DNA of 57,111 nt from Kiritimatiellia bacterium (GTDB lineage: Bacteria > Verrucomicrobiota > Kiritimatiellia > RFP12 > UBA1067), in the NCBI GenBank assembly GCA_017650345.1, contig JAGCFB010000070.1:1-57111 (forward strand), written 5' to 3'. The notes beneath the pieces are model-generated. The model was not told the origin of the DNA and searched no databases. It worked only from the letters and a program-made list of their open reading frames with translations. A program made the translations under genes and the position numbers. This document shows positions 1 to 43,300 of this stretch, piece by piece; within the stretch, counting starts at the first letter, position 1, and the number at the start of each line of letters is the position of its first letter.

Positions 1-335
1 CAGCTTTCCCCACGCGAGTGGGGATGTTCCGTGAGGCCGCGCTTTTCTTCGTCGGTGGGGTTCGCTTTCCCCACGCGAGTGGGGATGTTCCGGACATGAC
101 CTGCCGTGGCTTCCAATACAAGAAGCTTTCCCCACGCGAGTGGGGATGTTCCGGGCGGCGCGAATCATCTGCCTGTTGGCGACGAGCTTTCCCCACGCGA
201 GTGGGGATGTTCCTCGAAGGCGGCGGCGGTGGTGGCGGCATACCCAGCTTTCCCCACGCGAGTGGGGATGTTCCGAGACGCCGCGATCACTCGCGCGAAC
301 AGGACAGCTTTCCCCACGCGAGTGGGACCGCCGTT
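1..335 (+). CRISPR. Leader-distal end of a CRISPR array with a type I-E-like 29-nt repeat: 5 intact repeats, 5 spacers, 1 degenerate terminal repeat
   Basis: GCTTTCCCCACGCGAGTGGGGATGTTCC(G) occurs at 3-31, 64-92, 125-153, 186-214 and 247-275 with a 61-nt period (29 repeat + 32 spacer). Its core is palindromic (CCCCAC GCGA GTGGGG). The sixth copy (307-335) matches only its first 20 nt, as expected for a decayed terminal repeat. Layout and orientation resemble the E. coli I-E repeat GTGTTCCCCGCGCCAGCGGGGATAAACCG, so transcription runs left to right and the leader and cas genes would lie left of the window. Confidence 0.93.
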
Positions 336-390
336 ATTTTTTACTCCCCCGGTTGTGCAGCCGGTCCTTGTTGCGCTGCCGTGCCTTTTG

Positions 391-460
391 TTTTTGCTAT
401 AATGCAGGAGATGGGAATGACCGATGGACAGAATGCCGCAAAGTGCAGAAGGGGTGTGGC
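391..460 (+). promoter_or_regulatory. Promoter + 5'-leader module, copy A (extended -10 TGCTATAAT at 395-403, ATG immediately after at 461)
   Basis: The 70-nt segment aligns without gaps to 2024-2093, with 59/70 identical positions by my hand alignment. It contains TGnTATAAT and a purine-rich GAAGGGG box shortly before an ATG. Confidence 0.55.
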
Positions 461-671
461 ATGTCGGTGCTTTTTGGCGCTGAGAAAAATCAGCACGGGA
501 AATCGGGGGAATGTGGTATCATAGGTCTGCCATTGCAGCCAGGCCACGACGGCGGCTGCGGCAAGGCTGAACAAAACGATGAAAATAGATGGATTGTCTG
601 GGCGCTCGCCCAACCGACAGAACCTTCACCATGGTTCTGCTGGCGCGGCGCCGGCTGAGCCAAAAAACAAG

Positions 672-2060
672 ATGCTGCAGCGCTGCCAGGGCTGGGACTA
701 CAAGGCACCTTGCATCTACTCGATAACGATTGCCATCGCAGAGCGGCGGTCGATGGCTTTAGGGCGGCTTGTCATCGACAACGACGGCGGCGGCGATCCG
801 GCGAAGGTGGCGGCCCATGTAGAGCAGACGGCGGCGGGGCGGGCGGTAGATGCCGAGTGGCGGCGCATGGGCGATTTCACGCCAGCGATAAGGCCGCTCG
901 CGATCCAGATAATGCCAGACCACATCCACATCATCTTGCGCGTGACCGAGCGGCTTGCTCGCCCGCTCGGCCAGATAATCGCCGGCTTCAAGACCGGAAG
1001 CTCCAAGGCCGCGACCGGAAAGCCCGGCTTCTGGAGCGAGGGGTTTCAGGATACGATCCTGTTTCGCGAGGGCCAGCTCGAGAAGATGTTCAGATATGTG
1101 AGAGACAACCCGCGGCGGCTGGCGGTCAAGCGGCTATACCGCAAGTTCTTCACGGTAAGGCGCGACCTGGCGGTAGAGGTTGCGCTTACGCCCGCCCCGG
1201 TCGTCGCCGTTGGCGACGAGGTTGCGCTTACGCGCAACCAACAGAACAATAGCGGTGGTTTTGCTGGCGGTGGTTCTGTTGCCTCGGCGGCAGCCGGGGC
1301 TTGCCCCCGGCGGGGGCCGCTGCTTCACTTTCAGGCGATTGGCAACGAGGCGCTTTTGAAGGCGCCGGCGATCTTCCAGATACAGTGCTCGCGCAGCCAC
1401 CTCGCCTACCGGCGCGTGGCGAAGCCGGGCGGCGGGTTCAAGATCGCGCGCGACGGGAGCGGGCTGCCGATAATCGAGACCGAGACTTGCGAGTTTAGAG
1501 AGAAGCTTGCGGTGCTGCTTGCGATGGCCGCGAAGGGCGCGGTCTTGGTGTCGCCCTGCATCTCAGACGGCGAGCGCGAGATCGCCCGCAGCGCGATGGA
1601 TGCGGGCGCGAAGCTGATAACGCTCTCAAACAAGGGCTTCTCAAAGCTCTTCAAGCCGGGCGGCAAGGCCTTCGAGAGCGCGAGCGAAGGGCGGCTCCTG
1701 ATGCTGGCCCCCGCCGCCTGGCCCTACCAGCCCGGCGAGAAGAGGATGACGCGCCTCGACGCCTGCACGCTCAACCGCATAGCCCAGCTTATCGCGGGCG
1801 ATGGCGCGGCGGAGGTAAACTATCGCGGCATGAAGCCGGTCGATATTGCAGGCCGCGTTGCCGCCGCCTGCAAGGTTGGGCTTATGCCCGCCCCGGTCGT
1901 CGCCGTTGGCGACGAGGTTGCGCTTACGCGCAACCAACAGAACAATAGCGGTGGTTTTGCTGGCGGTGGTTCTGTTGCCTCGGCGGCAGCCGAGGCGGCG
2001 CCTTGCAGCCGCGCAGGAGCGGTTTTTTGCTATAATGTAGGAAATGGGAAAGACCTATAG
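672..2060 (+). CDS. HUH/Y1 transposase-like (IS200/RAYT-type) N-terminal domain fused to a DprA/SLOG-like C-terminal domain; alternative start ATG 579
   Basis: HUH motif MPDHIHIIL lies at 912-938 (His-Ile-His at 921-929). The catalytic-Tyr helix FRYVRDNPRR has its Tyr codon at 1095-1097. The N-terminal WDYKAPCIYSITIAIAERR strand is typical of the COG1943/PF01797 family. The C-terminal part (about 1300-1880) reads GAVLVSPCISDGEREIARSAMDAGAKLITL...GRLLMLAP...LNRIAQLIAG, which resembles the DprA Rossmann core (SGxAxGID..AH..AL..GG..I.VL ... RNRIIAGL). The single open frame ends at TAG 2058-2060. Confidence 0.6.
   Translation: MLQRCQGWDYKAPCIYSITIAIAERRSMALGRLVIDNDGGGDPAKVAAHVEQTAAGRAVDAEWRRMGDFTPAIRPLAIQIMPDHIHIILRVTERLARPLGQIIAGFKTGSSKAATGKPGFWSEGFQDTILFREGQLEKMFRYVRDNPRRLAVKRLYRKFFTVRRDLAVEVALTPAPVVAVGDEVALTRNQQNNSGGFAGGGSVASAAAGACPRRGPLLHFQAIGNEALLKAPAIFQIQCSRSHLAYRRVAKPGGGFKIARDGSGLPIIETETCEFREKLAVLLAMAAKGAVLVSPCISDGEREIARSAMDAGAKLITLSNKGFSKLFKPGGKAFESASEGRLLMLAPAAWPYQPGEKRMTRLDACTLNRIAQLIAGDGAAEVNYRGMKPVDIAGRVAAACKVGLMPAPVVAVGDEVALTRNQQNNSGGFAGGGSVASAAAEAAPCSRAGAVFCYNVGNGKDL
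1177..1296 (+). repeat. Structured ~106-120-nt element, copy A (three consecutive stem-loops), embedded in frame in the Y1/DprA-like ORF
   Basis: 1191-1296 is identical base for base to 1887-1992. Hairpins are TCGTCGCC-gtt-GGCGACGA (1201-1219), GGTTGCGC-ttac-GCGCAACC (1220-1239) and CAACAGAAC...GTTCTGTTG (1239-1281). An extra half-site GGTTGCGCTTACG lies at 1178-1190. Confidence 0.9.
1873..1992 (+). repeat. Structured ~106-120-nt element, copy B, same orientation and same reading frame as copy A
   Basis: 1887-1992 equals 1191-1296 exactly. The offset is 696 nt (a multiple of 3), so both copies encode PAPVVAVGDEVALTRNQQNNSGGFAGGGSVASAAA. The upstream flank GGTTGGGCTTATG is a diverged version of copy A's GGTTGCGCTTACG. 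Confidence 0.9.
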
Positions 2061-2093
2061 ACAGAAGGCCGCAAGGCCTGGAAGGGGTGTGGC
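2024..2093 (+). promoter_or_regulatory. Promoter + 5'-leader module, copy B (extended -10 TGCTATAAT at 2028-2036), driving the gene at 2097
   Basis: Gap-free 70-nt alignment with 391-460. It contains a 5-bp stem AGGCC/GGCCT closed by a GCAA tetraloop (about 2066-2079) and GGAAGGGG about 10 nt before ATG 2097. The stop codon of the upstream ORF (2058-2060) lies inside this module. Confidence 0.6.
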
Positions 2094-5055: not shown

Positions 5056-8000
5056 GCTTGATGAAACGCGCATTGGCCGCCCTTGCGGCGGCATTCCTGG
5101 CGACTGCCGCCGAGGCCGCGGCCTTCAGGTACTTCGTTGACCTGGACATCGCCGGATACGAAGGCAAGGAGGAGCTTTCGGGCTTCCCCCTCCTGGTGCG
5201 CGTTTCCGAGGCCGCCGTCCCCGGCTTCAGGTATGCCGACGTTACCGCCCACGGCGGGGCGGGGGCGGTCCGCTTCTTCACGGAGGACGGCGAGCAGCTT
5301 CCCAGCGAGTGCGAGTACTGGAACACGTCCGGCGAGTCGATCTTCTGGGTGCGCCTCCCATCCCTGACCCCGATCGGGACCAAGATCCGCATGAAATGGT
5401 GGTTCTACGGCGGCGGGACGCTCGAGGATTCCGATTCGGCGGGCGTCTGGAGCGACTTCATCGGCGTCTGGCACATGGGCGACAGCGTGGACGCCACGGA
5501 GGCCTTGAACGGCAAGGTGGCCAGGGACTCCACCGCGCACGGACTGGACGCCGTGCCGCAGAGGGGCGCGAACGGCAACCTCTCCCTCATGGTGTCGAAG
5601 GACGGACCTGTCGGCCTCGCGCGCGTCAACCAGAGCAACAACCAGCTCAAGGGCAACCAGTTCGTCGTCCCCTACGACCGCGTCATGGACGTCGGGTCGA
5701 GCTTCACGCTTTCAATGTGGCTTTCCTTCACCGGATACGACACGGCCTCGCCGTGCATCGTGAGCACGAAGAGGAACAAGGCCAGCTCCGAGGTCACTGA
5801 AGAGGACACGCCCGGCTGGGCGGTCTCCCTGCGCAAGAGCAACTACTGGAACCAGCTCCAGCTCCGCGGCAGCGGCGACCTCGCGCCATACGTGACGGTC
5901 AGCGACTCGCCGGTCAGGAACCGCGGCTTCCTGCGCTACGACCTCGTTTACAGCGGCAGCAGGGTCCTCGTGTACGTCAACGGCGAGAAGGCGGGCGAGG
6001 AGACGGTCAACGCCGTCGCGAGCAGCGGCGCGCCCCTCAGGTTCGGCAACAATACCAACGAAACTTGCAGCGTAAACGGCATTTATGACGAAATACGCTA
6101 CAGCAAGGGGGCGATGTCGGCGGACTGGATCGCGGCGGACTACGCCCAGCAGAAGGCCGGCGGCGGGTACGTCTCGTTCGGGACGCTCTGCGCCGGCGAG
6201 AGCCTCTTCTGGTCCGAGGATCCCAGCATCACGCCTTCCGTCTGGCATCCCGGCGAGGCGGCGACCGTGCAGGTCCGCGCGCGCGCGCTGTCCGACGGCG
6301 ACGACGTGCCTTGGCGCCTGAAGTTCACCAACCTCGTCACGGGCGAGACGTCGGACAAGGTGCCGGACGCGATCGGCAGCTACGAGGCGCTGTTCTACGT
6401 GCCGCGCTCTTCGCTCGAAAGGAGCATCCACGTCGATGTCATCAACGAGACGCCGGTCGCCGTGACCGGAAGCGACCGCGTGCTGGTGTTCAGCAGGGAC
6501 GTCGAGACCGTCCCCGAGGCGCCGGTCGAGGACGACCAGACCTGCGGCAACGTCAATCCCGCCAACTCCGTTTACTGGAAGTACCTGAACGACGACGAGC
6601 CCGGCGAGGGCTCGCAGCCGCTCCTCCAGCCCGGAACCGTCTTCGAGCTTTGGACGGGCGAGGCTGCCGGCGAGGACGCCGGAAGGAGGCTCTGGCGCTT
6701 CGAGCAGTGCCGTCTGGGCAACACCTTCAACAACAAGGCGAACACCGGCGCCGTTGACGGGGAGCAGAACTACCTGCCCGTCTCCACCAAGGCGTCGCGC
6801 TTCAACGCGGCGGACAGGACCGCGAGCCAGTACCGCCACGGCGGCACCGTCATGCTGCGGAACACGAAGTCCGCCGGCGTGTACTCCCCCTGCTACGAGG
6901 ACGGCATCGGGACGATCTACTTCGACGCGGTCAACGGCTGGGTCGCCTATCCCAACAACATCGTCGTCGAGGTCTGCACCGGCGTGAAGCCCCTCAACGC
7001 GGAGGGCAACGGCGTCGTGGGCAACATCCCGGAGACGGACGACGATGGCGTCAACCTGCCCCCGACTGACGGAAACTGCGGCTATACGGACGAGGACGGC
7101 ATAGAACATCCGTTCGGACGCTGCATCTGGACGCAGGTCGCCGTCCACCGCTACGTGGTCTCCGGCGGGGCCATCGACACCTACCTGTCCGGCGACATCG
7201 AGGCGGACGACGCGGACGGCATCCCGCTCGACTGCACGGTCGGCGGCGCGACGGACAACTGGTTCCGCATCCGCGCAGGGGCGCTCAACATCCGCGTCCC
7301 CGCCCGCTTCCGCATCCGCAGGCTCGACAGCGGGTCCAACTACTACGACGCGTCCACCGAGGCGTCCGTCCTCGACGGCGAAGGTCTCGTGATCCTCGAC
7401 AACCTGATCTGCACCATGCCCGCCGCGACCATCGGACTCAGCCAGTTCGGCGCGTACAGGAACGACACCGATCCCGGCAAGGACGACCAGTCCAGGCGCG
7501 CGCTCGGACAGGTCGGCGCGTTCAGCGTCGCCTTCCCGAGCTGGAGCGAGACGAACCTCGTCGGACGCGCCAAGGCGACCTACGAAGGGTACACGAACAT
7601 CGTATCCAACGTCGAAGGACTCGACATCGGCGACGGGTCGGGCATGGTCACGACCATGCGCATGGACTGGCGCTGGCGCCGCCTCGACCAGTCCTTCAGC
7701 CAGTGGGAGGCGATCTACATGCGTCCGAAGGAGGGACTGCCGGAGGTCTGGGAGACGCTGAAGCCGCTGAAGATCACGGACGACGACGGCGAGCCGCTCT
7801 ACGGCGAGGGCGACATCGAGTACCGCGTCCAGGCCATCGTTGACGGACCGTTCGGCGTGTTCGCCGACTATACGGACCTCGCCGTCGGCGTCGGCGGGTA
7901 CTCCGAGCGCATCGGCACCGTGGACTGCGAGAACGGCGGATCCTACAACACGCTCGTCGGCACCTGCGGCATCGTCAAGGACTCCACGTTCGTGCGCCTG

Positions 8001-10466
8001 CGCGAGGGAGCGAGCGCCTACGAGGGCATCGACCTCTGGATCCAGGACGGCACGTCCGAGGTCCGCTTCCCGATGGAGCTCGTTGGCGACCGCCAGTGGC
8101 GCGGATTCTACCCGACGACGAACGACACGGAGAAGACCGTCAAGTTCTGGTTCGAGGGACGCGCCAGGCAGGAGGACGGCGCGCTCGTTTACAACGCGGA
8201 CTCCGTCGGGCTCTTCTGCACGAAGGACGTCGAATCCGTCCCCGTGAACCTCACCGTCGAGGAGGAGGGCGGCGTCGAGCGAGAACTCGCGATCCCCGCG
8301 AAGCCCACGGCGAACTACATGGTCTTCCTCCTCAACGAGAAGGTACGCACGCTCTCGATCGCCAACGCGGACAGGCAGAACTTCGACTGCTGGTCCGCCT
8401 CCCGCCGCGAGACCCCGGACAAGTTCTACACCTCCTTCTACGAGACGAACTCCACCGCGACCATCCACTCGCGCATGCCGGAGTCGGAGGACGACAACTG
8501 CATCGAATACTTCACCCTCTCCTCCGCCACGAACAAGAACTGGCGCGAGTCGTTCTCCCTTTCCGGCGGACAGTCCGCCGTCGGCTATCCGATAGGCGAG
8601 AGCTTCCGCACAGAGACGACGCCCGAGAGCGCCTGGACGGCCGAGTTCGGCGCGTGGGCGCCCCAGAAGTACGGCGTCACGAACGCGACGGACTTCGCGC
8701 TCGAGATGAAGGGCCAGACGCTCGGAACGCTGATCTACAGCCGCAACAGCGACCTCGACCACGAGGCGCCGAACGGACTCGAGTCCATCTCCTTCAAGGC
8801 GAGGCTGTCGCAGCTGATGCGCTACCAGGACATCTCGTACAGCAACTACGGACTCGTTGACAACACGACTCTCACCAACTGCACGATCGCCGCGCAGGTG
8901 GCGGTCGATCCGACAGTCGGCCTCGACGGGTTCGACGGCGACGGCTCGATCTCCCTCGTCCTCGGCTACATGCCCGGACAGGGCTGCTACGAATACCGCG
9001 TGACGATCGACAACGTCGTCTCCAACGCCTTCGTCCAGGATTCCACGCAGGCGCTGACGGCCCGCTGCCGCCATGCGATCTACAAGTGGTACTACGACGA
9101 GAACGACGACGAGTACGTCGCCAAGGAGCTGTACTCGACGTTCGGCGACGCGACCTGGGGAACCGGCAACGGCGCGGCCTGGTGCTGGAAGGCGAACGTC
9201 GGCGACGACTCGACCGGAAGGAGCAAGATCGGCAGCCAGCTGCACATGTGCATGGGCGGCGACGGCTACTCCGGCATGTTCTTCTCCATAAGCAACGGCC
9301 TGAACAGGGTTTACCTCACCGGCGGCGTCACGGGCGGATCGGACAACAAGTCCGCCGGCGCCGAGGCGTTCACCTACGAGAACAAGGACTTCTGCATCAT
9401 CGCCGTCGAGGACCACATCGGGGACGACGGCTCGCCGATCTGGAACAAGGGCACGTACGGCTACATAACCAAGAACTGCCCGGCGCAGATCCTCTATCCG
9501 CGCGTCTATGAGCGCACCTCCGTCGCCCCGCTCGACACGGCCAGGGCCGAGGCGGGCGGACTCTACTGGACGACGAACGTTCCGCTCATCGCGGAGAGCG
9601 GCTACCACGCGGCCAGGACGGACGACATGGTGTTCCATCCGCGCCGCCTCGTCCCGTACTCCTACAACGAGCTGTGGGGATATGCCGCGGACACGAACGC
9701 CTACCAGACCGTTGACGTCTATATCCAGCCCATCAACGGCGGCGTCGAGGGCAACTGGTCGCTGGTCACGAAGGAGCTCGTCAGCTCCTTCCGCCTCGCC
9801 CCGTTCAGGCTTGACCTCCAGCTGGCGCAGACCTGCAACGTCAAGTTCCAGACGGGCGACTCCTCCACTGCCATCGTGATCGACGAGGCCACGCTCAGCC
9901 AATGGTGCGGCTCCAGCGGATCGCAGGACGGCTACGGCGAGGCGTACGCGAGGGACCCGGACACCTTCTGCTACTACGTTTCCTGGATATCCAACAAGGT
10001 CGTCCGTTCGCAGTCCGGCACGACGAGGAAGAAGGTGGCCGTGCTCGCGCCGCGCAGGGCGTCGTCCGCAAGGTCGGCCCTCGCCGTCCGCTCGCCCTTC
10101 ATGGAGGGCCTAGGGTCCGTCACGTTCTCCTACGAGGACGCCTACCCCGGCGCGCAGGTCCTCGTCCAGTGGTGCGCCTGCGACTACATGAGCATGGGCG
10201 ACAAGAGCTTCGAGCCGGCGGACTCCCCGGACTGGGAGACGATAGCGAGCTTCACGTTCGACGCCAGCGAGCGGAAGGGCACCCGCACCGTCCACCTCGG
10301 AAAGCGCGCCCCCGTTACGGGAGCCTTCCGCGTCGCGATCCCGCAGGACGTCGTCGCGCAGGCGCTGGAGGACGACACGCTCACGGAGACCCCCGAGTGG
10401 ATGTCCGTCTCCATAACCGACATGTTCTGCATCGACGAGCCGGCGTTCGATTCGCGCTCCTGGTAG
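5052..10466 (+). CDS. Giant secreted protein (1,804 aa) with an N-terminal DUF2341-like domain and a LamG/concanavalin-like domain
   Basis: Signal peptide MSLMKRALAALAAAFLATAAEAAA. DUF2341-like FRYFVDLDIAGY...GFPLLVRV...IFWVRLPSL...KWWFYGG lies at about 5124-5415. A LamG-like region (FIGVWHMGD...FTLSMWLSF...VYVNGEKAG...IYDEIRYS) lies at about 5440-6140. The N-terminal extension from 4929 shown in the track is rejected. The gene ends at TAG 10464-10466, and the next ORF is in the same frame. Confidence 0.8.
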   Translation: MSLMKRALAALAAAFLATAAEAAAFRYFVDLDIAGYEGKEELSGFPLLVRVSEAAVPGFRYADVTAHGGAGAVRFFTEDGEQLPSECEYWNTSGESIFWVRLPSLTPIGTKIRMKWWFYGGGTLEDSDSAGVWSDFIGVWHMGDSVDATEALNGKVARDSTAHGLDAVPQRGANGNLSLMVSKDGPVGLARVNQSNNQLKGNQFVVPYDRVMDVGSSFTLSMWLSFTGYDTASPCIVSTKRNKASSEVTEEDTPGWAVSLRKSNYWNQLQLRGSGDLAPYVTVSDSPVRNRGFLRYDLVYSGSRVLVYVNGEKAGEETVNAVASSGAPLRFGNNTNETCSVNGIYDEIRYSKGAMSADWIAADYAQQKAGGGYVSFGTLCAGESLFWSEDPSITPSVWHPGEAATVQVRARALSDGDDVPWRLKFTNLVTGETSDKVPDAIGSYEALFYVPRSSLERSIHVDVINETPVAVTGSDRVLVFSRDVETVPEAPVEDDQTCGNVNPANSVYWKYLNDDEPGEGSQPLLQPGTVFELWTGEAAGEDAGRRLWRFEQCRLGNTFNNKANTGAVDGEQNYLPVSTKASRFNAADRTASQYRHGGTVMLRNTKSAGVYSPCYEDGIGTIYFDAVNGWVAYPNNIVVEVCTGVKPLNAEGNGVVGNIPETDDDGVNLPPTDGNCGYTDEDGIEHPFGRCIWTQVAVHRYVVSGGAIDTYLSGDIEADDADGIPLDCTVGGATDNWFRIRAGALNIRVPARFRIRRLDSGSNYYDASTEASVLDGEGLVILDNLICTMPAATIGLSQFGAYRNDTDPGKDDQSRRALGQVGAFSVAFPSWSETNLVGRAKATYEGYTNIVSNVEGLDIGDGSGMVTTMRMDWRWRRLDQSFSQWEAIYMRPKEGLPEVWETLKPLKITDDDGEPLYGEGDIEYRVQAIVDGPFGVFADYTDLAVGVGGYSERIGTVDCENGGSYNTLVGTCGIVKDSTFVRLREGASAYEGIDLWIQDGTSEVRFPMELVGDRQWRGFYPTTNDTEKTVKFWFEGRARQEDGALVYNADSVGLFCTKDVESVPVNLTVEEEGGVERELAIPAKPTANYMVFLLNEKVRTLSIANADRQNFDCWSASRRETPDKFYTSFYETNSTATIHSRMPESEDDNCIEYFTLSSATNKNWRESFSLSGGQSAVGYPIGESFRTETTPESAWTAEFGAWAPQKYGVTNATDFALEMKGQTLGTLIYSRNSDLDHEAPNGLESISFKARLSQLMRYQDISYSNYGLVDNTTLTNCTIAAQVAVDPTVGLDGFDGDGSISLVLGYMPGQGCYEYRVTIDNVVSNAFVQDSTQALTARCRHAIYKWYYDENDDEYVAKELYSTFGDATWGTGNGAAWCWKANVGDDSTGRSKIGSQLHMCMGGDGYSGMFFSISNGLNRVYLTGGVTGGSDNKSAGAEAFTYENKDFCIIAVEDHIGDDGSPIWNKGTYGYITKNCPAQILYPRVYERTSVAPLDTARAEAGGLYWTTNVPLIAESGYHAARTDDMVFHPRRLVPYSYNELWGYAADTNAYQTVDVYIQPINGGVEGNWSLVTKELVSSFRLAPFRLDLQLAQTCNVKFQTGDSSTAIVIDEATLSQWCGSSGSQDGYGEAYARDPDTFCYYVSWISNKVVRSQSGTTRKKVAVLAPRRASSARSALAVRSPFMEGLGSVTFSYEDAYPGAQVLVQWCACDYMSMGDKSFEPADSPDWETIASFTFDASERKGTRTVHLGKRAPVTGAFRVAIPQDVVAQALEDDTLTETPEWMSVSITDMFCIDEPAFDSRSW

Positions 10467-10547: not shown

Positions 10548-13241
10548 GTGGGCGTCCTCAACTCGACGGCCCTCGACGAGTCCACCCTCGAAACCGGCAA
10601 CAGCGAGGACTACATCTCAAACAACCCGTTCTTCCAGTCCCCGACGTTCACCACGAACTGGATCGGCGAGATCTCCTTCAGGGCGCGCGCCTACGACGGC
10701 GACGGACCCAGCTGCCTCACGGTCTGGGCGGCGCGCGAGGGCGCGACGACCACAGGCGAGGACTGGATCGCGCTCACGAACATCATCGTGTCCGGCCGCG
10801 AGTACCGCCGCGTCGTGGTGAAGTGCATGGACGACGACCGCTACGCCGCGATCAGGATCGGTGTCGCCAACGCAGAGGGCGTGACAGGCGAGTTCAAGCT
10901 CGATCCCGCCGCCAAGGAGGACATGCCCGACGCCCCGACCCGCGTCGTGATCGACGACGTCGTCGTCACGGAGCGCGGCTTCCCGGAGATCGGCTTCCGC
11001 ATCGACTTCGCGCGTCCGTTCCGACTCGGACTCTCCGACCGCACGGCCGTCGAGGACATCGACACCGGCATGGAGCAGCCGCTCCTCGACGAGCAGTTCG
11101 GCTTCCAGGCCGAGGTCCTCATCGGCGGCGCGAGCGAGGAGATCGACCTCTCCATCACACCGAAGGTCTATGTCAGCTACTACCCGGCCAAGGAGCCTTG
11201 GGGCTACAAGAACTGGAAGGACCTTCCCGAAGCGTTCCTCCGCATAGAGCTTCCGCCGGCCGAGGGGACGAACCTCGTCTATCGCTCGATGCCCGAGAAC
11301 CCCGACACCTACGTCATGCCGCAGCCGATGCTCGACGACGAGAACTACGGACTCGTCCAGTACTTCCTCGAAGTGCGCTACTGGAAGTACGGCGAAACCG
11401 AGTCCGACGCCGGACACTGGGCGTCCATCAACGCGACCCAGTGGCGCATGCCCACATGGGACGAGGGCTTCGAAGACCCCAACGGCGTGGAAGGCGCCGC
11501 GTTCTCGCCGTTCACGCTTCTCGATTCCGTCTCGCCGGGCCGCGCCTGGATCAACGAGGTCAACTACACGGCCATCGGCGACGACTCCTATACGGACCAG
11601 GAGAAGCAGTTCATCGAGGTCTGCTTCCCGGGCGGAAGCGACATGACCGGCTGGCGCGTGTACCGCTACAGGCGCATGTCGAGTGCGACGGACTTCATGA
11701 AGCAGGACTTCATGTTCATGTTCGGCGCGGACGGCGTGCCCGCCACGAAGCAGATCGGCGAGTCCCATCCCGTCTATGCGTTCGTCGCCGTCAAGGATCC
11801 GTCCTCCAGCGTCGATGAGGCGGACGCCGACTGGAACGACGAAGTGTCGAGCTGCGCCCGCACCAAGAGCTACGGCTTCCAGCTCGTGAGGCCCACCGGC
11901 GTCATCGAGCAGCAGATCGTCGTCCAGGGTCTGCACAACCCGAACGACCGCAACTCGAAGTACGAGGCCGGAACCAACGTCGTGAGGGTTCTCAACGAGT
12001 TGTTCGAGGACTATACGGAGAAGAAGTGGGACTACGTCGGCGTGGACACCAACGTCGCCGGAAGGTCCGTCGGCGTTTACCAGAACGCCGGCCAGCTGCT
12101 TGGCGACTGGAACAGCTGGATGCACTTCACGCCAGGCCTCCTCAACGAGGACCAGACCATACCCGACGACTGGTACATCCCCGCCACGGGCATGAACCTC
12201 TGGCTCAGCGTCACGACCGGTCCGAACGTCTGGATCGTCGGCGCGGGCGGGCCCGTCTCCGCCGCGTCCTTCGTGGTCCCCGAGGGACAGAGCACCAACC
12301 TCGTCTTCGAGGTCTCCCCGTGGTACAAGCTCGGCTCGCTCCTCCTCGACGGGACGACGGAGGCCATAGCGGACGCCGTTCGCACTGCGGAGGAGGCGTC
12401 CGTCGCCGGACGCTCCGTCTGGACGTACGAGTACGTCAATCCGGGCGTCAACAAGGGGACCGTGCTAGCCAGCGCCGCGATCGACGATTCCGTCCTCGTG
12501 CGCGGCGACCTCGATCCGGACGATCCCTACACGCCCGCGATCATGGACTGGCTCCTCAAGGGCTCGCTCGACGGCACGTGGGAGGGGACCGAGATCTCGA
12601 CGAACTGCTGGCACTGGGGCATTCACTCCTCGCACGAGAGCGGCACGAACGTCACGCTGAAGGGACGCTACTGGCTCGACATAGACCCGACCTCCGACAG
12701 GTGGGACGTCCGCACCGGATACACCAAGACGGCGATGCCCATCTACCGTCCGGCGTCGGACGGATACTGGCCGGAGTCCGTCACCAACACGCGCATGACG
12801 GTCTTCGTAATGATCTCCAACAAGATCGACAACGCCGAGTCGTATCCGCCGTACCGCCTCCAGGGTCTCGGCGGCGAGAGGAGCGACGAGGTCGGGCCGT
12901 TCGCCTGGACGAGCGTCACGTTCCAGGTCCAGGCAGCGCTCAAGTACAACGGGAGCAGCGGCTACATAGACGTCAGCGGCAACTTCTATCCTCTCAGGCA
13001 GTTCGTCTTCGACAACGACAGCTTCGGCGCGCCCGGCTCGCCGCATCCCTTCCAGGCGAGCATCGAGATCCTCGACAACAGGTCCACAACCTCGCCCGGC
13101 TACGGCTACGGATGGACGCCCGAGCTGACGCCCAAGGGCGGAGAGGACCTCTACTGGAGGTTTAGGATAGACGAGAGGACCTTCAGGCAGTCGCCCGACA
13201 TGCTGAAGATGGTCGATACGTGGGATGGAGGCTGGCAGTGA
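10548..13241 (+). CDS. Large secreted/surface protein segment with a lamin-tail-domain (LTD)-like region; possibly the C-terminal continuation of 5052-10466
   Basis: Same frame as the upstream gene (both start coordinates are divisible by 3). There is no ATG or convincing RBS between TAG 10466 and GTG 10548. The LTD-like motif GRAWINEVNYTAIGDD...QFIEVCFPGGSDMTGWRVY lies at about 11538-11670. Protein-like sequence continues straight through 10467-10547. Confidence 0.65.
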   Translation: MGVLNSTALDESTLETGNSEDYISNNPFFQSPTFTTNWIGEISFRARAYDGDGPSCLTVWAAREGATTTGEDWIALTNIIVSGREYRRVVVKCMDDDRYAAIRIGVANAEGVTGEFKLDPAAKEDMPDAPTRVVIDDVVVTERGFPEIGFRIDFARPFRLGLSDRTAVEDIDTGMEQPLLDEQFGFQAEVLIGGASEEIDLSITPKVYVSYYPAKEPWGYKNWKDLPEAFLRIELPPAEGTNLVYRSMPENPDTYVMPQPMLDDENYGLVQYFLEVRYWKYGETESDAGHWASINATQWRMPTWDEGFEDPNGVEGAAFSPFTLLDSVSPGRAWINEVNYTAIGDDSYTDQEKQFIEVCFPGGSDMTGWRVYRYRRMSSATDFMKQDFMFMFGADGVPATKQIGESHPVYAFVAVKDPSSSVDEADADWNDEVSSCARTKSYGFQLVRPTGVIEQQIVVQGLHNPNDRNSKYEAGTNVVRVLNELFEDYTEKKWDYVGVDTNVAGRSVGVYQNAGQLLGDWNSWMHFTPGLLNEDQTIPDDWYIPATGMNLWLSVTTGPNVWIVGAGGPVSAASFVVPEGQSTNLVFEVSPWYKLGSLLLDGTTEAIADAVRTAEEASVAGRSVWTYEYVNPGVNKGTVLASAAIDDSVLVRGDLDPDDPYTPAIMDWLLKGSLDGTWEGTEISTNCWHWGIHSSHESGTNVTLKGRYWLDIDPTSDRWDVRTGYTKTAMPIYRPASDGYWPESVTNTRMTVFVMISNKIDNAESYPPYRLQGLGGERSDEVGPFAWTSVTFQVQAALKYNGSSGYIDVSGNFYPLRQFVFDNDSFGAPGSPHPFQASIEILDNRSTTSPGYGYGWTPELTPKGGEDLYWRFRIDERTFRQSPDMLKMVDTWDGGWQ

Positions 13242-27005: not shown

Positions 27006-27058
27006 GGCGCGAGACGCGAGACGCGAGACGCGACATCCCGTCTCTCGTCTGGCGTCTC
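27006..27058 (+). repeat. GCGAGAC-repeat palindromic element in the ackA-pta spacer
   Basis: GCGAGAC is repeated three times in tandem, followed by the imperfect complement CGTCTCTCGTCTGGCGTCTC, giving a hairpin of roughly 20 bp. Its reverse complement matches 45127-45183 inside uvrA (49/53 aligned positions plus one 4-nt indel by my hand alignment). Confidence 0.85.
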
Positions 27059-39206: not shown

Positions 39207-42200
39207 ATGAATACAGGTTCCCGCATTCGCCTTCTCGCAGCATCCGCGCTTCTGTCGCTGGCAATGCCGGTGGCGAACGCGGCGACCATAGTTTACGCCA
39301 ACTGGGGCGCCTTCACCAACAACGCGACGTACGCTGCGGCCACGGTGTCGCCCCAGACTGCCACGCTCACCACAGACGACACCGTCTTCACGGCGACGCC
39401 GCCGACGGGCATGGGGATCGACGCATGGTACGTGGTCTCCCACGCGCCGTCGGCGCCGGACATCGCGGAAGGAACCAACTCGATGGCGGCGTCGTCATTC
39501 TCGACGACGTTCGCCCCGTCCTACACCCTGACGCTCAACACCAAGATGCTGGTCGTCTCCAGCGGCGGAAACTACTGGCTCATTCCGGCGTACTCCTGGT
39601 ACGGCTACACCCTCGCGTACAACGCGAACGGCGCGTCGGGCTCGGCGCCCGCGTCCGCGTCCCACAAGTACCCCGACGCGTTCACCCTTGCGTCCGCGAG
39701 CGGACTCACCCTCGCGGGCCACAGCTTCGGCGGATGGTACAGGAACGCCGCCTGCACGGGGACCCGCTACACCGCCGGGCAGTCCGTCTCCGGCTCGACG
39801 TTCTCCGCGACGGAGAACGGAACCGTGACGCTCTACGCGAAGTGGACCGCGATATCCTCGACCGTGACGCTCGACGCGCAAAGCGGAAGCGGCGGAACGT
39901 CGTCCGTCACCGCGACGTACGGATCGGCGATGCCGTCCATAACCAAGCCGACGCGCACTGGCTACACGTTCGGCGGATACTGGACGGAGGCGAACGGCAA
40001 GGGGACGCAGTACTACTACGCTTCGGGCGCGAGCGCGCGGACCTGGGACAAGACCTCCGCCACGACGCTCTACGCGAAGTGGACCGCAAAAACCTCTACC
40101 GTGACGCTCGACGCGCAAGGCGGAAGCGGCGGAACCTCGTCCGTCACCGCCACTTACGATTCCGCGCTCCCGACTGTGGTCAAGCCGACGCGCACGGGCT
40201 ACACGTTCGGCGGCTACTGGACGGAGCCCGGCGCCAAGGGAACGAAGTACTACTACTCGACAGGCAAGAGCGCGCGGACCTGGGACAAGACGTCCGCAAC
40301 GACGCTCTATGCCCAGTGGACTGCGAAGACTTACGAATTTACCGTCGATCCGAACGGCGGCGTTTACAACAGCTCGTCCGATCCGACGGTCAAGGATCCT
40401 GATTTGATGTACGGAACCTCGCGGTGGTGGTCGGTCTCCCCGGCCACGCGCACGGGCTATTCCTTCACCGGATGGTACTCCTCGGCGAGCGGCGGATCGC
40501 AGGTGTGGGACGCGAGCGGCAAAGCCGTGAAGGGGACGTACTGGAGCGACACGCACGACAACGGCGGACTCTGGCAGTACGACGCGGCGGACGGCACATT
40601 CACGACGTACGCGCACTGGACTGCGAAGCAGTACACAGTCACGTTCGACCTTCAGGGCGGAAGCGGCGGATCGTCGTCGGTGACGGCAACCTACGATTCG
40701 GCGCTGCCGTCGATCGGCAGGCCGACGCGCACGGGCTACACGTTCGGCGGATACTACACCGAGCCGGACGGCGGCGGCGTGCAGTACTACAACTCCAGCG
40801 GCAACGGCGCGCGCACCTGGGACGTCGCCTCGGCGACCACGCTCTACGCCAAATGGAATCCCAAGGTGTACACGTTCTACGTCGATCCCAACGGCGGAAC
40901 CTACTCCGGCTCGACCGAGCCCACCCAGAAGTCGCCGAACCTGATGTACGGAAGCTCACGGTGGTGGTCGGTCTCCCCCGCAACGCGCACGGGCTACTCG
41001 TTCACCGGATGGTACTCCTCGTCGAGCGGCGGGTCGCAGGTGTGGGACGCGAGCGGAAACGCCGTGAAGGGCGGCTACTGGAGCGACACGCACGACAACG
41101 GCGGAGTCTGGATTCACGACGCCTCCAGCGGCTCGTTCACGACTTACGCGCAGTGGACGCCGGCGACGTACGGCCTGATGTTCGACGCGCAGGGAGGAAG
41201 CGGCGGAACCTCGTCCGTCACGGCCACCTACGGATCGAACCTCCCGTCCGTCACCGTGCCGACGCGCACGGGCCATACGTTCGCTGGCTACTGGTCCGCG
41301 CCGGACGGCGGCGGCACGCAGTACTACAACGCGTACGGAAACGGCGTCAAGAAGTGGGACGTCGCGTCCGCCGCGACGCTGTACGCGAAGTGGACGCAGA
41401 ACACCTACACCGTTACGTTCAGGTACAAGAAGGGCAACGGCGCGAACGCGTCCAGCCAGGTCGAGACGCCCGGAACCGAGGCGGCGGTCGCGCCGGACGA
41501 ATCGGAGGTCAACACGTACCTCGCCCACTGGTTCGTCGAATGGGATGCGGACTTCTCGTGCGTCGTGAGCAACATGACGGTGAACGCGATCTACACGCAG
41601 AGCTACTTCAGGATCGGCTACGCGCCTGGCGTCGGCGCGAGCGGCGAGATGGAGGAGCAGACGATCCACGGCGGAGTCCCGACGGCGCTGACGGCGAACG
41701 CGTTCGTCCGCAGCGGCTACTCGTTCACGGAGTGGCTGTCGCAGATCGACGGGACGCCGCGCACGTTCGCGGACGAGGAGGTCGTCCAGGACCTCGTCGG
41801 CGGAACGAACGTCCTTCTCACCTTCACCGCACAGTGGTCTCCGATATCGTACACAGTCGCGTACGAGCCGGAGGGCGGCGACGGACTCATGCCGCCGACG
41901 GCGCACCAGTACGACGTCCCGTTCCAGGTCGCGGCGAACGCCTACGACCGCACGGGCTACACGTTCGCGTCGTGGACGAACGCGGCGGGCCAGGTTTACC
42001 TCGGCGGCGAGACAGTCTCCAACCTGACGGCGACGGCCGGGGGCGTAGTTTCGTTCTGGGCGGTGTGGACCGCGAACGAATACAGCGTGCACTACGACCC
42101 CAACGGCGCGCAGATCGACGCGATGCACAACATGGGCGACACGTCGGCGACGTACGACGTCCCGTTCGACCTGCCTGAGAACCTGTTCGTCCGCAACGGC

Positions 42201-43300
42201 TACACATTCAGCTCGTGGAACACGGCGTCCGACGGCACCGGCGCCGGCTTCGCCGACCGCGCGACCGTCTCCAACCTCGCGACGAACCAGGGCGAGGTCG
42301 CCACGCTCTATGCGCAGTGGTCTGCGAACGGCTATAAGATCGCGTTCGACGGCAACGGCGGCGGCGGGTCCATAACCAACACCGTCATGGATTGCGTTTA
42401 CGACGAGACCTGCACCTTGCCGCAGAGCGACCTCGTCAAGGACGGATGCGTGTTCAGCGGATGGGGATACGGCGCGAACGGGTTCCTTGCGGACGGCGCG
42501 ACGTTCAGCAACCTCACGAACGAGGCGGGCGTCGTCGTCACGCTCCGCGCGGTCTGGGAGACGATCGGCGGCGACATAAAGGAGGCGCTCGACGTCCCCG
42601 CCGCGCAGCGCGAATCGATGATACTGTGGAAGTCCGGCGGCGAATGGACGGTCAGGGAATACGACCAGGCGACGGACGAGGTGTCGCCGCAGAAGGGGAC
42701 CTCGTACATGATGGCGTCCTCGGCGGACGGCGTCAGCGACCTTTCCATGGTCGTCACGAACGCCGGCACGCTGTCCTTCTGGTGGACGACGACGGACAAG
42801 CGCAGTCCGCGTCCGCTCCAGTTCGAATTCCTGTACTGCTACCTGGACAACGACTCGCCGCTCGCCACGACCTACGGCGACGACGGCGAATGGCACCGCG
42901 TCGAGCTGGACCTGACGGACCTCGAAGGCGAGCACACTATAGTCTGGAGGCTCAACACCGGCAGCGACAACTACACGGACCAGGTCGCGTACCTCGACCA
43001 CCTGACGTGGACGCCCGTCGGCTCCGAGCCCGAGGCCGAGGAGCCTACCGAGGCGGACAGGCCGATCATTGCGACGGCGGAAATGGAGTCCGGCGACTTC
43101 GCGATCTCCCTTGAGGCGACCGGCGCATTCCGCTACGTCCTCCAGGCGAGCGACACGATCGATCCGCCCGACTGGTCCGGCGTCGATTCCTTCGACGCGT
43201 CCGCCGCCGGCGAGACGGTATCGTTCGACGGACTCTTCGACCCCGACAGGCCGCGGCGCTTCTTCAGGGTGCTTGTCGAGGCGCTGGACGGGACGGGCAA

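What the first reader, a model, noticed from the sequence alone, without database searches (positions are those of the whole stretch)
672..2060. HUH/Y1 transposase-like domain fused to a DprA/SLOG-like domain, immediately downstream of the CRISPR terminal repeat
The N-terminal ~170 aa carry the complete IS200/RAYT-type catalytic set: HUH at 921-929 and the Tyr helix at 1095-1097. The ORF does not stop there. It continues for ~290 more residues whose core resembles the Rossmann-like ssDNA-binding fold of DprA/Smf: VLVSPCISDGEREIARSAMDAGAKLITL...GRLLMLAP...LNRIAQLIAG.

A single polypeptide combining an ssDNA hairpin nickase/transferase with an ssDNA-binding, RecA-loader-like module is not an architecture I know. 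It sits about 340 nt after the last CRISPR repeat. It could be a domesticated REP-type transposase, a new single-strand mobile element, or an accessory factor of the array.
Basis: partly seen in the sequence, partly recalled or inferred. Interest (0 to 1): 0.72.

Follow-up and report, generated by a model that had tools for sequence, protein, structure and literature searches.

The report
RAYT-like nuclease fused to DprA-like domain
The gene is real and encodes a REP-associated (RAYT-type) single-strand DNA nuclease fused to a shortened DprA-like DNA-binding domain, a widespread but unannotated gut-bacterial family whose own hairpin repeats sit inside and around the gene; its position next to the CRISPR array is a coincidence.

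Summary
An independent assembly (L056) carries the same sequence.

Both domain calls are supported. The N half folds like IS200/IS605 TnpA and E. coli RAYT and matches NCBIfam REP_Tyr_transpos (E 6e-9, below its cutoff). The C half folds like DprA/ShosA, and its sequence profile ranks H. pylori DprA first in the PDB (E 0.08).

The fusion is a large family, not a one-off: about 1,600 clusters at 50% identity in gut and rumen Kiritimatiellae, Lentisphaerae and Bacteroidales. Of 80 representatives picked by the C domain alone, 75 carry the RAYT-like N domain.

The DprA-like part is truncated. It lacks the dimerisation/RecA-contact third, so "RecA loader" is not supported.

The 124-nt repeat at 1177-1300 and 1873-1996 (98% identical) is a REPIN-like hairpin doublet with core CAACAGAAC. 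One copy encodes the interdomain linker. The other overwrote the normal stop and lengthens the ORF by about 60 codons.

Relatives are flanked by hairpin repeats. Close relatives sit inside type I restriction-modification operons. CRISPR adjacency is not a family trait.

Verdict: a new variant of a known kind (RAYT/TnpA-Y1 class 2).

The parts
1..333 (+). End of a CRISPR array. The repeat is CAGCTTTCCCCACGCGAGTGGGGATGTTCC with a 61-nt period. The last repeat (305-326) is degenerate at its 3' end.
   Evidence: The array continues for at least 42 repeats in L056. It is a neighbour, not part of the system.
391..460 (+). D4a, the upstream copy of a 70-nt direct repeat that brackets the gene. It begins TTTTTGCTATAATG (extended -10-like, my reading) and is followed directly by ATG 461.
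   Evidence: 84% identical to 2024-2093 and only two copies in 57 kb. It is not structured.
598..665 (+). Degenerate third copy of the hairpin-repeat module: TGGGC-GCTC-GCCCA, then CGACAGAAC, an 8-nt spacer and GGTTCTGCTG. It is homologous to the hsdM|X junction element of relatives, but the SD and ATG that sit in the spacer there are lost here.
   Evidence: Alignment A4, and fold z = -2.3.
672..2060 (+). ORF of the RAYT-like/DprA-like fusion protein, 462 aa from ATG 672. An in-frame ATG at 579 would add 31 aa.
   Evidence: (1,650+ homologues covering both halves).
672..1166 (+). N-terminal Y1/HUH domain (residues 1-165), IS200/IS605-RAYT fold.
   Evidence: AF2 model pLDDT 87. Foldseek hits are TnpA of IS200/ISDra2/IS608 and RAYT 4er8, with TMq 0.53 and rmsd 3.0. 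NCBIfam REP_Tyr_transpos E 6e-9. Profile against PDB gives E 9e-4.
921..929 (+). HUH motif H84-I85-H86, within MPDHIH.
   Evidence: Invariant. It aligns to MPDHIH of 2ec2 and ISDra2 TnpA.
1095..1112 (+). Catalytic-Tyr motif Y142-V-R-D-N146-P147. This is the Y---NP signature of TnpA-Y1 class 2.
   Evidence: Invariant. The class signature is from PMC6006769.
1177..1300 (+). D2a, a REPIN-like hairpin module that encodes the interdomain linker in frame. Its parts are a TTAC hairpin remnant (1178-1196); hairpin GTCGTCGCC-GTT-GGCGACGA (1200-1219); REP unit A, GTTGCGC-TTAC-GCGCAAC (1221-1238) plus CAACAGAAC (1239-1247); a 25-nt spacer; and inverted unit B, GTTCTGTTG (1273-1281) plus hairpin CGGC-GGCA-GCCG (1285-1296).
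   Evidence: (dG -41 kcal/mol, z -4.8 on both strands). Third-codon-position GC is 0.61, against 0.81-0.94 in flanking coding DNA.
1323..1871 (+). C-terminal conserved domain (residues 218-400), a truncated DprA-like Rossmann domain. Conserved motifs are G224-N225..LL; C239-S240-R241 (nt 1386-1394), aligned to DprA G-T-R with R241 at the position of HpDprA Arg52; S294-P-C-I-S-D-G-E301 (nt 1551-1574); K328-P329; and N368 (nt 1773-1775).
   Evidence: AF2 pLDDT 89, pTM 0.86. The top 12 Foldseek hits are DprA and ShosA. With profile A7 the top 3 PDB sequence hits are HpDprA, E 0.08, in register. Pfam, NCBIfam and PADLOC give no hit.
1873..1996 (+). D2b, a second copy of the REPIN-like module, 98% identical to D2a and 696 nt (232 codons) downstream. 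It replaces the family's usual C-terminal tail and stop, and extends the ORF to 2060.
   Evidence: It is present in the independent assembly L056.
2007..2024 (+). Terminator-like hairpin followed by a T run, just before D4b.
   Evidence: This is a consensus match only.
2024..2093 (+). D4b, the downstream copy of the 70-nt bracket repeat. It serves as the promoter-like region and 5' leader of the next gene (ATG 2097, DUF1570-like).

Best explanation
The gene encodes a domesticated REP-associated tyrosine transposase (RAYT, TnpA-Y1 class 2) that carries an extra C-terminal domain. That domain is homologous to the first two thirds of the DprA Rossmann fold.

**Proposed mechanism.**
1. The HUH domain binds a short GC-rich tetraloop hairpin in single-stranded DNA. 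The hairpin is followed within 0-3 nt by CAACAGAAC. This is its REP unit; two inverted units form the REPIN-like module D2.
2. It nicks the DNA with Tyr142 and the His84/His86-bound metal, forming a 5'-phosphotyrosine intermediate.
3. It rejoins the strand, and in doing so copies or moves these elements.
4. The DprA-like module adds a grip on single-stranded DNA, through the retained Arg of the G-S/T-R motif. It does not provide DprA's dimer or RecA interface.

**In this window.** One module sits in frame in the interdomain linker. A near-identical second copy has recently landed on the 3' end of the gene, removing the normal stop. A decayed third copy lies in the 5' leader.

**Origin.** The lineage descends from copies that live as a guest gene between hsdM and hsdS of type I restriction-modification operons. 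The CRISPR array is only a neighbour.

**Shown:** fold, motifs, family size, repeat anatomy, stem covariation, repeat enrichment and genomic contexts.
**Inferred:** catalysis, which sequence is cleaved, single-stranded DNA binding by the C domain, and that the protein made the D2b copy.
For: **Fold and sequence**
- The N domain matches IS200/IS605 TnpA and RAYT 4er8, REP_Tyr_transpos at E 6e-9, and TnpA sequences by profile at E 9e-4 across MPDHIH.
- Its Y---NP, DHxH and WE motifs fit class 2 of PMC6006769.
- The C domain gives DprA and ShosA as the top 12 Foldseek hits, probability 1.0, TMq 0.45-0.50.
- HpDprA is the top sequence hit in the PDB, with GN..LL/vqvSR aligned to GD..LL/iiGTR. The Arg at HpDprA Arg52 is at least 90% conserved. 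[quoted passage not shown]

**Family**
- 1,650+ and 2,067+ 90%-identity clusters were found in two searches, and 1,603 clusters at 50% identity.
- 75 of 80 representatives chosen by the C domain alone carry the RAYT-like N domain.
- GTDB genomes mostly hold one locus each: 44 loci, with two genomes holding two.

**Repeats**
- D2 is strongly structured, z -4.8.
- All four exact CAMCAGAAC sites in the 57-kb window lie in D2a/D2b, against 0.47 expected.
- The same unit sits at the hsdM|X junction, in the linker and inside hsdR of relatives.
- Across 13 distinct units, 5 of 7 stem pairs change on both sides; 0 of 500 shuffles reach the observed score.
- Short repeats are 5 times denser in the gene +/-200 nt than in the rest of the loci, higher in 23 of 29 loci.
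- Upstream/downstream repeat pairs occur in 11 of 46 gene copies against 2 of 95 control ORFs, p = 8e-5.
- Clear REP arrays flank Bacteroidales and other Kiritimatiellae copies.
- The L040/L041-type unit (hairpin plus GCACAGAAC...) lies on several contigs of the same MAGs, with compensatory stem changes.
- REP insertions inside tnpA-REP genes have precedent in subclass 2.4 (PMC6006769).
Against: - The D2-type unit is not dispersed. There are no further copies in the other 55 kb of the window. The exact 24-mer occurs only once in JGI metagenomes, again in a homologue's linker. Classical REPs number in the hundreds per genome.
- The NCBIfam RAYT score (36 bits) is far below the equivalog cutoff of 80, and Pfam Y1_Tnp is below its gathering score.
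- No DprA sequence model reaches significance. By my own alignment, the DprA motif F-x-x-R-N keeps only the Asn.
- Embedding in type I R-M operons with overlapping stop and start codons is not a known RAYT habit.
- The bracket repeat D4 and the 89-nt repeat of L057 are unstructured and not REP-like.
- The D2a/D2b duplication could equally come from homology-driven gene conversion. The junction shares GGTTG with the native tail.
- In the covariation test, the inner four stem pairs were selected by construction.
Confidence: 0.6

Rival explanations
1. The protein is an accessory factor of type I restriction-modification, or more broadly of defence. It would act on single-stranded DNA of invaders or of incoming transforming or conjugative DNA, either nicking hairpins or shielding DNA from restriction. 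The window copy would be an orphan left after loss of the R-M genes.
For: - In the clade at least 72% identical to the window protein, the gene sits between hsdM and hsdS with overlapping stop and start codons.
- A 55% clade has hsdM-hsdS-X-hsdR.
- The same slot holds other guest genes: YhcG-like in L058, whose hsdM is 96% identical, and RhuM-like in L062.
- The fold matches ShosA, the DprA-like antitoxin of the ShosTA defence system (PMC11961720).
- H. pylori DprA modulates restriction and methylation (PMC3597690).
- The window copy lies next to a CRISPR array.
Against: - Most family members, including the large Bacteroidales branch and many Kiritimatiellae, stand alone in housekeeping neighbourhoods without R-M genes.
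- The gene outlives decay of its R-M operon (L030, L312).
- PADLOC has no model that hits it.
- The window holds no R-M gene.
- This reading does not explain the hairpin repeats that follow the gene in all contexts.
Confidence: 0.2
2. The gene is the transposase of an autonomous single-strand mobile element, IS200/IS605-like or a new kind, that moves itself. D2 or D4 would be its ends.
For: - Within the clade at least 80% identical, the gene occurs in unrelated contexts: after a CRISPR array here, between tRNA genes in L312, in R-M operons, and in L057.
- The window unit is bracketed by a 70-nt direct repeat, and L057 by an 89-nt one at 95.5%.
- Many contigs carrying it are short.
Against: - Usually one copy per genome and one in this window.
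- There are no conserved left and right ends. The sequence between the bracket repeats and the gene differs between the window and L057.
- In operons there is no room for ends.
- L030 and L312 keep hsdM/hsdS stumps, which points to in-situ decay or passive carriage rather than precise transposition.
- No tnpB partner was seen.
- The same protein sits in the same place in dozens of samples.
Confidence: 0.1
3. The fusion is an artefact or a dead gene. It would be two genes joined by an assembly error or by read-through of GC-rich sequence, or a pseudogene.
For: - High-GC DNA yields long spurious ORFs.
- The linker and the 3' tail are repeat-encoded with atypical codon-position GC.
- The 3' extension is unique to this lineage.
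Against: - Both halves are joined in frame in thousands of proteins with linkers of many lengths, and with no linker at all in Bacteroidales.
- All catalytic and family-invariant residues are intact.
- A second assembly has the identical structure.
- Third-codon-position GC of both domains is coding-like.
Confidence: 0.03
4. The protein is an accessory factor of the adjacent CRISPR array, for example in spacer acquisition from single-stranded DNA.
For: It lies about 340 nt downstream of the terminal repeat. L034 also has an array about 4 kb away.
Against: - Only 2 of about 43 non-redundant loci have an array within 6 kb.
- The gene is at the leader-distal end of the array.
- No cas gene lies in the 57-kb window near it.
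Confidence: 0.02

Closest known systems
RAYT / TnpA-REP (E. coli YafM, PDB 4ER8; TnpA-Y1 class 2 of Quentin et al. 2018, PMC6006769)
   Same: - Y1/HUH fold; 4ER8 gives the best TM-score among the hits.
- DHxH, WE and Y---NP motifs.
- Mostly one gene per genome.
- The gene is flanked by hairpin repeats, some as inverted doublets.
- Repeat insertions inside the gene occur, as in subclass 2.4.
   Different: - It carries a 130-190-residue DprA-like C-terminal domain. None of the twelve described subclasses has one; their extensions are Bac_DnaA_C/HTH or subclass-specific.
- The conserved motif lies 3' of the hairpin (CAACAGAAC / ACAGAAC), rather than being a 5' GT[AG]G foot.
- In this lineage the repeats stay in and next to the gene instead of spreading through the genome.
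- Some members are operon guests in type I R-M systems.
IS200/IS605 TnpA (IS608, ISDra2)
   Same: Same catalytic fold and the same HUH plus single-Tyr chemistry acting on hairpins in single-stranded DNA.
   Different: - The Y-motif is Y---NP, not Y----Q.
- There are no IS ends and no tnpB.
- It is single copy.
- It is roughly two to three times longer.
DprA/Smf (PF02481; H. pylori 4LJR, S. pneumoniae 3UQZ)
   Same: - Rossmann-like core with matching order of elements.
- GN..LL lead-in.
- The (G/C)-S/T-R loop with the ssDNA-binding Arg.
- The S-x-x-x-x-G-E/D helix start.
- It is the top structural and top sequence match.
   Different: - No Pfam hit.
- It ends after the helix I align with DprA's RNRII helix, so the last ~60 residues, which include the dimer interface, are missing.
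- There is no SAM domain and no C-terminal winged helix.
- The F-x-x-R-N motif keeps only the Asn (my alignment).
- Kiritimatiellae members have a 27-residue beta-hairpin insert.
ShosA (DprA-like antitoxin of ShosTA, PDB 8ZVA)
   Same: It is the second-best structural match (TMq 0.50), a DprA-like domain outside natural transformation and in a defence setting.
   Different: There is no ShosT-like partner, no PADLOC hit, and a different architecture.

Membership tests
RAYT / TnpA-Y1 class 2 | IS200-like Y1/HUH fold with an HUH motif and a single catalytic Tyr in a Y---NP motif | tested here: met
   Foldseek. The profile aligns across MPDHIH. H84, H86, Y142, N146 and P147 are invariant or at least 90% conserved. 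The signature is from PMC6006769.
RAYT / TnpA-Y1 class 2 | Scores above the curated family model (NCBIfam NF047646 equivalog, 80 bits; Pfam PF01797, 23 bits) | tested here: not met
   36 bits, E 6e-9, for NF047646. 14-17 bits for PF01797. The match is significant but below both cutoffs, so this is a divergent branch and not an equivalog.
RAYT / TnpA-Y1 class 2 | About one gene copy per genome, not multicopy like an IS | tested here: met
   44 loci in GTDB species genomes, with only two genomes holding two loci. One copy in the 57-kb window. The scan used two peptide patterns, so it is a lower bound.
RAYT / TnpA-Y1 class 2 | Gene flanked by its cognate hairpin repeats (REPtron arrangement) | tested here: met
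   Window: modules at 598-665, 1177-1300 and 1873-1996. Family: flank pairs in 11 of 46 copies against 2 of 95 controls. Arrays are seen in L050, L055, L040, L041, L261 and L263.
RAYT / TnpA-Y1 class 2 | Cognate REPs dispersed in many copies through the genome | tested here: inconclusive
   For the window's D2 type this is not met in the data held: none elsewhere in 57 kb and one metagenome hit, also in a linker. For the L040/L041 type, exact copies lie on 3 and 7 contigs of two MAGs. No complete genome was available.
RAYT / TnpA-Y1 class 2 | Protein cleaves and rejoins its REP in single-stranded DNA | not testable with these tools
   This needs biochemistry.
DprA/Smf (PF02481) | Match to the family sequence model | tested here: not met
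   No Pfam or NCBIfam hit at E up to 1 for the C half, in the window protein or in four divergent members.
DprA/Smf (PF02481) | Rossmann-like DprA fold | tested here: met
   The top 12 Foldseek PDB hits are DprA or ShosA, probability 0.99-1.0, TMq 0.45-0.50, 154-166 aligned columns. The fold is partial: TMt is 0.32-0.42.
DprA/Smf (PF02481) | ssDNA-binding motifs G-S/T/A-R and F/L/Y-x-x-R-N/D (PMC3950713) | tested here: inconclusive
   Motif 1 appears as C-S-R, with the Arg aligned to Arg52 by HMMER and at least 90% conserved. Motif 2 is represented by A-C-T-L-N with only the Asn invariant. That alignment is mine and was not computed.
DprA/Smf (PF02481) | Dimerisation and RecA-interaction region in the C-terminal part of the Rossmann domain | tested here: not met
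   Bacteroidales members end about 10 residues after the LN.LA helix. The model has four core strands only. In HpDprA the dimer residues are 183-205.
IS200/IS605 insertion sequence | Multicopy element with distinct subterminal hairpin ends, often with tnpB | tested here: not met
   It is single copy, no conserved ends are shared between the window and L057, and no tnpB-sized neighbour was seen.
CRISPR-associated accessory gene | Recurrent linkage to CRISPR arrays or cas genes | tested here: not met
   An array lies within 6 kb in the window/L056 and in L034 only.

The most novel reading that the evidence does not exclude
The DprA-like domain makes this a new functional class of HUH enzyme that works on single-stranded DNA arriving in or exposed within the cell. 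As a guest in type I restriction-modification operons it would cover the single-stranded entry routes (conjugation, transformation, ssDNA phage) that restriction cannot see, or gate them for the host. The gene-resident REPIN modules would be its regulatory or recognition sites rather than passengers: in the operon form, the SD and start codon sit inside the REPIN spacer. The gene would then be kept after the operon decays because it is addictive or independently useful.
Probability: 0.15. Interest if true: 0.8.

Novelty: new variant of a known kind. Interest (0 to 1): 0.55.

Why it matters
RAYTs are the textbook case of a transposase domesticated by its host, yet what they do for the cell is still unsettled.

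- **A large unannotated branch.** This branch has about 1,600 clusters at 50% identity and is common in rumen and gut Bacteroidales and Kiritimatiellae. Its second domain is homologous to the ssDNA-handling core of DprA and is not recognised by Pfam, NCBIfam or PADLOC.
- **A testable hypothesis.** The fusion ties REP/REPIN biology to a defined ssDNA-binding module.
- **A candidate recognition site.** It provides compact candidate sites for biochemistry: a tetraloop hairpin followed by CAACAGAAC.
- **Repeats that become coding sequence.** The elements are translated as linker, loop and tail sequence of the enzyme that presumably moves them, and of neighbouring genes.
- **A new guest gene in type I R-M operons.** The gene joins the known set of genes that occupy the hsdM-hsdS slot.

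For annotation, the practical result is a new domain family and a caution. Low-complexity 'linkers' in high-GC genomes can be mobile hairpin elements.

Tried and rejected
- **Profile of the full-length alignment against PDB sequences.** It returned only a chance hit. Domain-wise and more diverse profiles were needed.
- **Genome-collection scan with CAACAGAACN{8,38}GTTCTGTTG.** The pattern was too unspecific.
- **Rfam and ARAGORN on 300-2400.** D2 is not a known RNA family or a tRNA-like gene.
- **PADLOC.** No defence model matched.
- **hsdM/hsdS/hsdR remnants around the window gene.** None is credible. The only weak match is the REPIN-encoded tail.
- **D4 as a REP.** Rejected because it does not fold better than shuffles.
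- **A DprA gene in the held sequences, to run a profile-profile comparison.** None was found, so no hhalign against DprA was done.
I solved this by first retrieving them through a protein search.
- **Literature searches for HUH/RAYT plus DprA fusions.** Nothing was found in the library searched, which does not prove absence.
Full report
**1. What is at 672-2060**

The + strand carries one open frame from ATG 579, or ATG 672, to a stop at 2058-2060. Upstream, six repeats of CAGCTTTCCCCACGCGAGTGGGGATGTTCC at 61-nt spacing end at about 330, and the last one is degenerate. HUH (H84-I-H86) is at 921-929 and Tyr142 at 1095-1097, in the motif YVRDNP.

A separately assembled 5.1-kb contig (L056) is 99.96% identical over 2,690 nt. 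It carries the same ORF and shows that the array has at least 42 repeats. A chimeric assembly is therefore unlikely.

**2. The fusion is a real and large family**

- A protein search found more than 1,650 clusters at 90% identity. Typical members are about 400 aa and cover both halves. They come from Kiritimatiellae MAGs and are named only 'hypothetical protein'.
- A genome scan added Lentisphaerae and, at 26-37% identity, Bacteroidales: Prevotellaceae, Muribaculaceae and Paludibacteraceae.
- A profile of the Bacteroidales members found more than 2,067 further clusters of 310-346 aa. JGI names some 'REP element-mobilizing transposase RayT' and NCBI names some 'transposase'.
- An exhaustive search with a profile of the C domain alone found 1,603 representatives at 50% identity (1,178 at E up to 1e-10). 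The domain is C-terminal throughout the listed hits.
- Of 80 full-length representatives picked this way, 75 match NCBIfam REP_Tyr_transpos in their N half.

In Bacteroidales the two domains abut directly. In Kiritimatiellae they are separated by a variable, low-complexity linker.

**3. Domain identities**

*N domain*
- The AlphaFold model has pLDDT 87.
- Foldseek against the PDB returns only IS200/IS605 transposases and the E. coli RAYT at the top. 4er8 scores TMq 0.53, rmsd 3.0 Å.
- A profile of diverse N domains hits the TnpA of Sulfolobus and ISDra2 at E about 1e-3, aligned across MPDHIH.
- NCBIfam REP_Tyr_transpos scores E 6e-9 but 36 bits against a cutoff of 80. Pfam Y1_Tnp is below its gathering score.
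- The motifs DHxH, W-E and Y---NP place it in class 2 (TnpA-REP-like) of the TnpA-Y1 classification of Quentin et al. 2018 (PMC6006769). None of that paper's subclasses has this length or this C domain.

*C domain*
- The model has pLDDT 89 and pTM 0.86.
- The twelve best PDB matches are H. pylori and S. pneumoniae DprA and E. coli ShosA, a DprA-like antitoxin. Probability is 0.99-1.0 and TMq 0.45-0.50.
- Pfam, NCBIfam and PADLOC give nothing.
- With a diverse profile, the three top-scoring of 177,635 PDB sequences are H. pylori DprA (E 0.08). 'aiGNqfLLdaPllvavqvsR' aligns to 'cvGDtkLLdtPlkvaiigtR'.
- That alignment puts the family's conserved Arg (R241 here) on HpDprA Arg52, the switch residue of the ssDNA pocket (PMC3950713).
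- The domain ends shortly after the helix I align with DprA's RNRII helix. It therefore lacks the last ~60 residues, which form the DprA dimer interface. According to that paper this interface partly overlaps the RecA contacts in S. pneumoniae.

So 'DprA-like ssDNA-binding fold' is supported, but 'RecA loader' is not.

**4.

*D2, the hairpin module*
- A 124-nt sequence occurs twice in the ORF, at 1177-1300 and 1873-1996. The copies are 98% identical and 696 nt apart, so they are in the same frame.
- It folds far better than shuffles on both strands (-41 kcal/mol, z -4.8).
- Its third-codon-position GC is 0.61, against 0.81-0.94 for the surrounding coding DNA.
- Dissection shows a recurring unit: a 4-7-bp stem ending ..GGC, a TNAC-type tetraloop, the return stem, then CAACAGAAC within 0-3 nt. 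D2 holds two such units in inverted orientation around a 25-nt spacer, which is the anatomy of a REPIN. It also holds two further hairpins.
- All four exact CAMCAGAAC sites in the 57-kb window lie in D2a/D2b, against 0.47 expected.
- A decayed third module lies at 598-665, just upstream of ATG 672.
- Across 13 distinct units from the window and relatives, five of seven stem pairs show changes on both sides. The covariation score exceeds all 500 shuffles and all slid controls. The caveat is that the inner four pairs were required by my selection.

*What the two copies do to the protein*
- D2a encodes the interdomain linker.
- D2b has replaced the tail and stop that homologues have, adding about 60 residues.

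*D4, the bracket repeat*
- A separate, unstructured 70-nt direct repeat (391-460 and 2024-2093, 84% identical) brackets the whole unit.
- Its downstream copy is the promoter-like leader of the next gene.
- The closest standalone homologue (L057) shows the same geometry with an unrelated 89-nt repeat. I could not explain this.

**5. Repeats follow the gene across the family**

- In relatives' type I R-M operons, the same module forms the hsdM|X junction. There it encodes a 25-residue extension of HsdM that X-less operons lack, and it holds the SD and ATG of X in the REPIN spacer. It also forms the X linker and occurs inside hsdR.
- Other lineages have their own units next to the gene:
  - CCCGRGGC-TGAA-GCCYCGG followed by GCACAGAACC... 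in L040/L041. Exact copies lie on 3 and 7 contigs of two MAGs, with compensatory stem changes.
  - GGTTAGATT-TTCC-AATCTAACC arrays in Paludibacteraceae and related Bacteroidales.
  - GCCGCCGC-GGA-GCGGCGGC+ATAG in L261.
- Over 43 non-redundant loci, short dispersed repeats cover 7.5% of the gene +/-200 nt against 1.5% elsewhere. The density is higher in 23 of the 29 loci that have any such repeat.
- Upstream/downstream repeat pairs at E below 1e-6 occur in 11 of 46 gene copies against 2 of 95 control ORFs, Fisher p = 8e-5.
- The peptide oddities of the Kiritimatiellae linkers and loops (GLTPAQQN, LPRQAQDR, GSVPGASAPG) are translations of these elements.
- Quentin et al. report REP insertions inside tnpA-REP genes for their subclass 2.4, so this has precedent.

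*Limit.* The D2 type itself seems confined to the gene and its operon neighbours. I found none elsewhere in the window, and one exact match in JGI metagenomes, again in a homologue's linker.

**6. Context**

| Group | Arrangement |
|---|---|
| Clade at least 72% identical to the window protein | hsdM-X-hsdS-hsdR, with overlapping stop and start codons |
| 55% clade | hsdM-hsdS-X-hsdR |
| Operon whose HsdM is 96% identical (L058) | A YhcG/DUF1016-like gene in the same slot |
| L062 | A RhuM-like gene in the slot |
| L064 | Nothing in the slot |
| L030 | Intact X beside stumps of hsdM and hsdS |
| L312 | Intact X followed by an hsdS stump |
| Other Kiritimatiellae and all sampled Bacteroidales | Standalone in housekeeping neighbourhoods |

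X is therefore one of several guests in the hsdM-hsdS slot. In L030 and L312 the gene has outlived its operon. The window has no R-M gene. Its neighbours are a DUF1570-like protein, GluQ-tRNA synthetase and giant LamG proteins. CRISPR arrays lie within 6 kb in only two locus types.

**7. Interpretation**

The best reading (0.6) is a RAYT-class domesticated HUH enzyme with an added DprA-type ssDNA-binding module. Its cognate hairpin elements cluster at the gene and have been absorbed into its own reading frame.

The near-identical D2a/D2b pair is either a recent product of that activity or a gene-conversion event. The junction shares GGTTG with the native tail, so I cannot tell which.

The rivals are:
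- a restriction or defence accessory acting on ssDNA (0.2);
- a self-mobile element (0.1);
- an artefact (0.03);
- a CRISPR accessory (0.02).

Fold, motifs, family, repeat anatomy and contexts are shown. Catalysis, the site of cleavage, ssDNA binding by the C domain and the origin of D2b are inferred.

**8. Novelty and score**

RAYTs, REPINs and REP insertions into RAYT genes are known. A DprA-like C-terminal domain on a RAYT does not appear in the 2018 classification. It also did not appear in the literature I could search, which does not prove it is undescribed. No domain library tested recognises it.

I rate this a new variant of a known kind, interest 0.55. The family is widespread and unannotated, has a clear biochemical hypothesis and an unexpected operon association, but it is not a new category.

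Noticed in passing
window 1-333, and L056 163-2743: A type I-E-like CRISPR array runs off the left end of the window. The same locus in L056 shows at least 42 repeats. No cas gene was seen downstream of it in the window.
   Followed up: partly
window 391-460 and 2024-2093; L057 140-228 and 1799-1887: Long unstructured direct repeats (70 nt at 84%; 89 nt at 95.5%) bracket the gene in the two closest standalone loci. In both, the downstream copy is the leader of the next gene. The repeat sequences are unrelated between the two loci. The origin is unexplained; it could be a long target duplication or a promoter duplication.
   Followed up: partly
window 461-658 (+) and 341-613 (-): Two small ORFs lie between D4a and the gene. 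One is 65 aa and starts right after D4a. The other is 90 aa on the opposite strand and has a hydrophobic stretch. Neither has a Pfam hit.
   Followed up: partly
window 27006-27038 and 45151-45183: An inverted pair of runs of the heptamer GCGAGAC, 33 nt long and 94% complementary, lies 18 kb apart.
   Followed up: no
window 39700-42240, 55620-56190 and 56446-56669: Coding repeats with a 240-280-nt period occur in large surface-protein genes, together with a Pro/Glu-rich tract of 6-nt periodicity.
   Followed up: no
L058 6048-7139; L062 2607-3623; L064 about 6054-6066: The hsdM-hsdS junction is a slot for different guest genes: a YhcG/DUF1016-like protein in an operon whose HsdM is 96% identical to that of an X-bearing operon, a RhuM-like protein, or nothing. 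The names for L058 and L062 come from my reading of motifs.
   Followed up: partly
L004 about 12100-12165; L009 about 12185-12245; L012 about 10210-10270: REPIN-like modules of the D2 type are inserted inside hsdR coding sequence in the R-M operons that carry X.
   Followed up: partly
L030 5810-7220; L312 4800-6420: Intact X sits beside stumps of its former type I R-M neighbours. In L030 these are the first ~20 codons of hsdM and 23 codons of hsdS. In L312 an hsdS 5' stump follows X, and X lies between two tRNA genes.
   Followed up: partly
L029 2174-3521 and L051 6001-7597: These copies of the gene are heavily loaded with internal repeats (36-39% of the gene region) and may be disrupted.
   Followed up: no
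alignment A10 (one of P0244-P0369): One of the 80 representatives that carry the C domain also matches the RecD2 helicase model (TIGR01448, E 1e-30). This may be a different fusion partner or a merged gene call.
   Followed up: no
L018 7284-10829: The HsdR-like protein downstream of X in the hsdM-hsdS-X-hsdR arrangement is 1,181 aa and ends in an S24/LexA-peptidase-like segment (my reading of the 'GDSMEP' motif).
   Followed up: no
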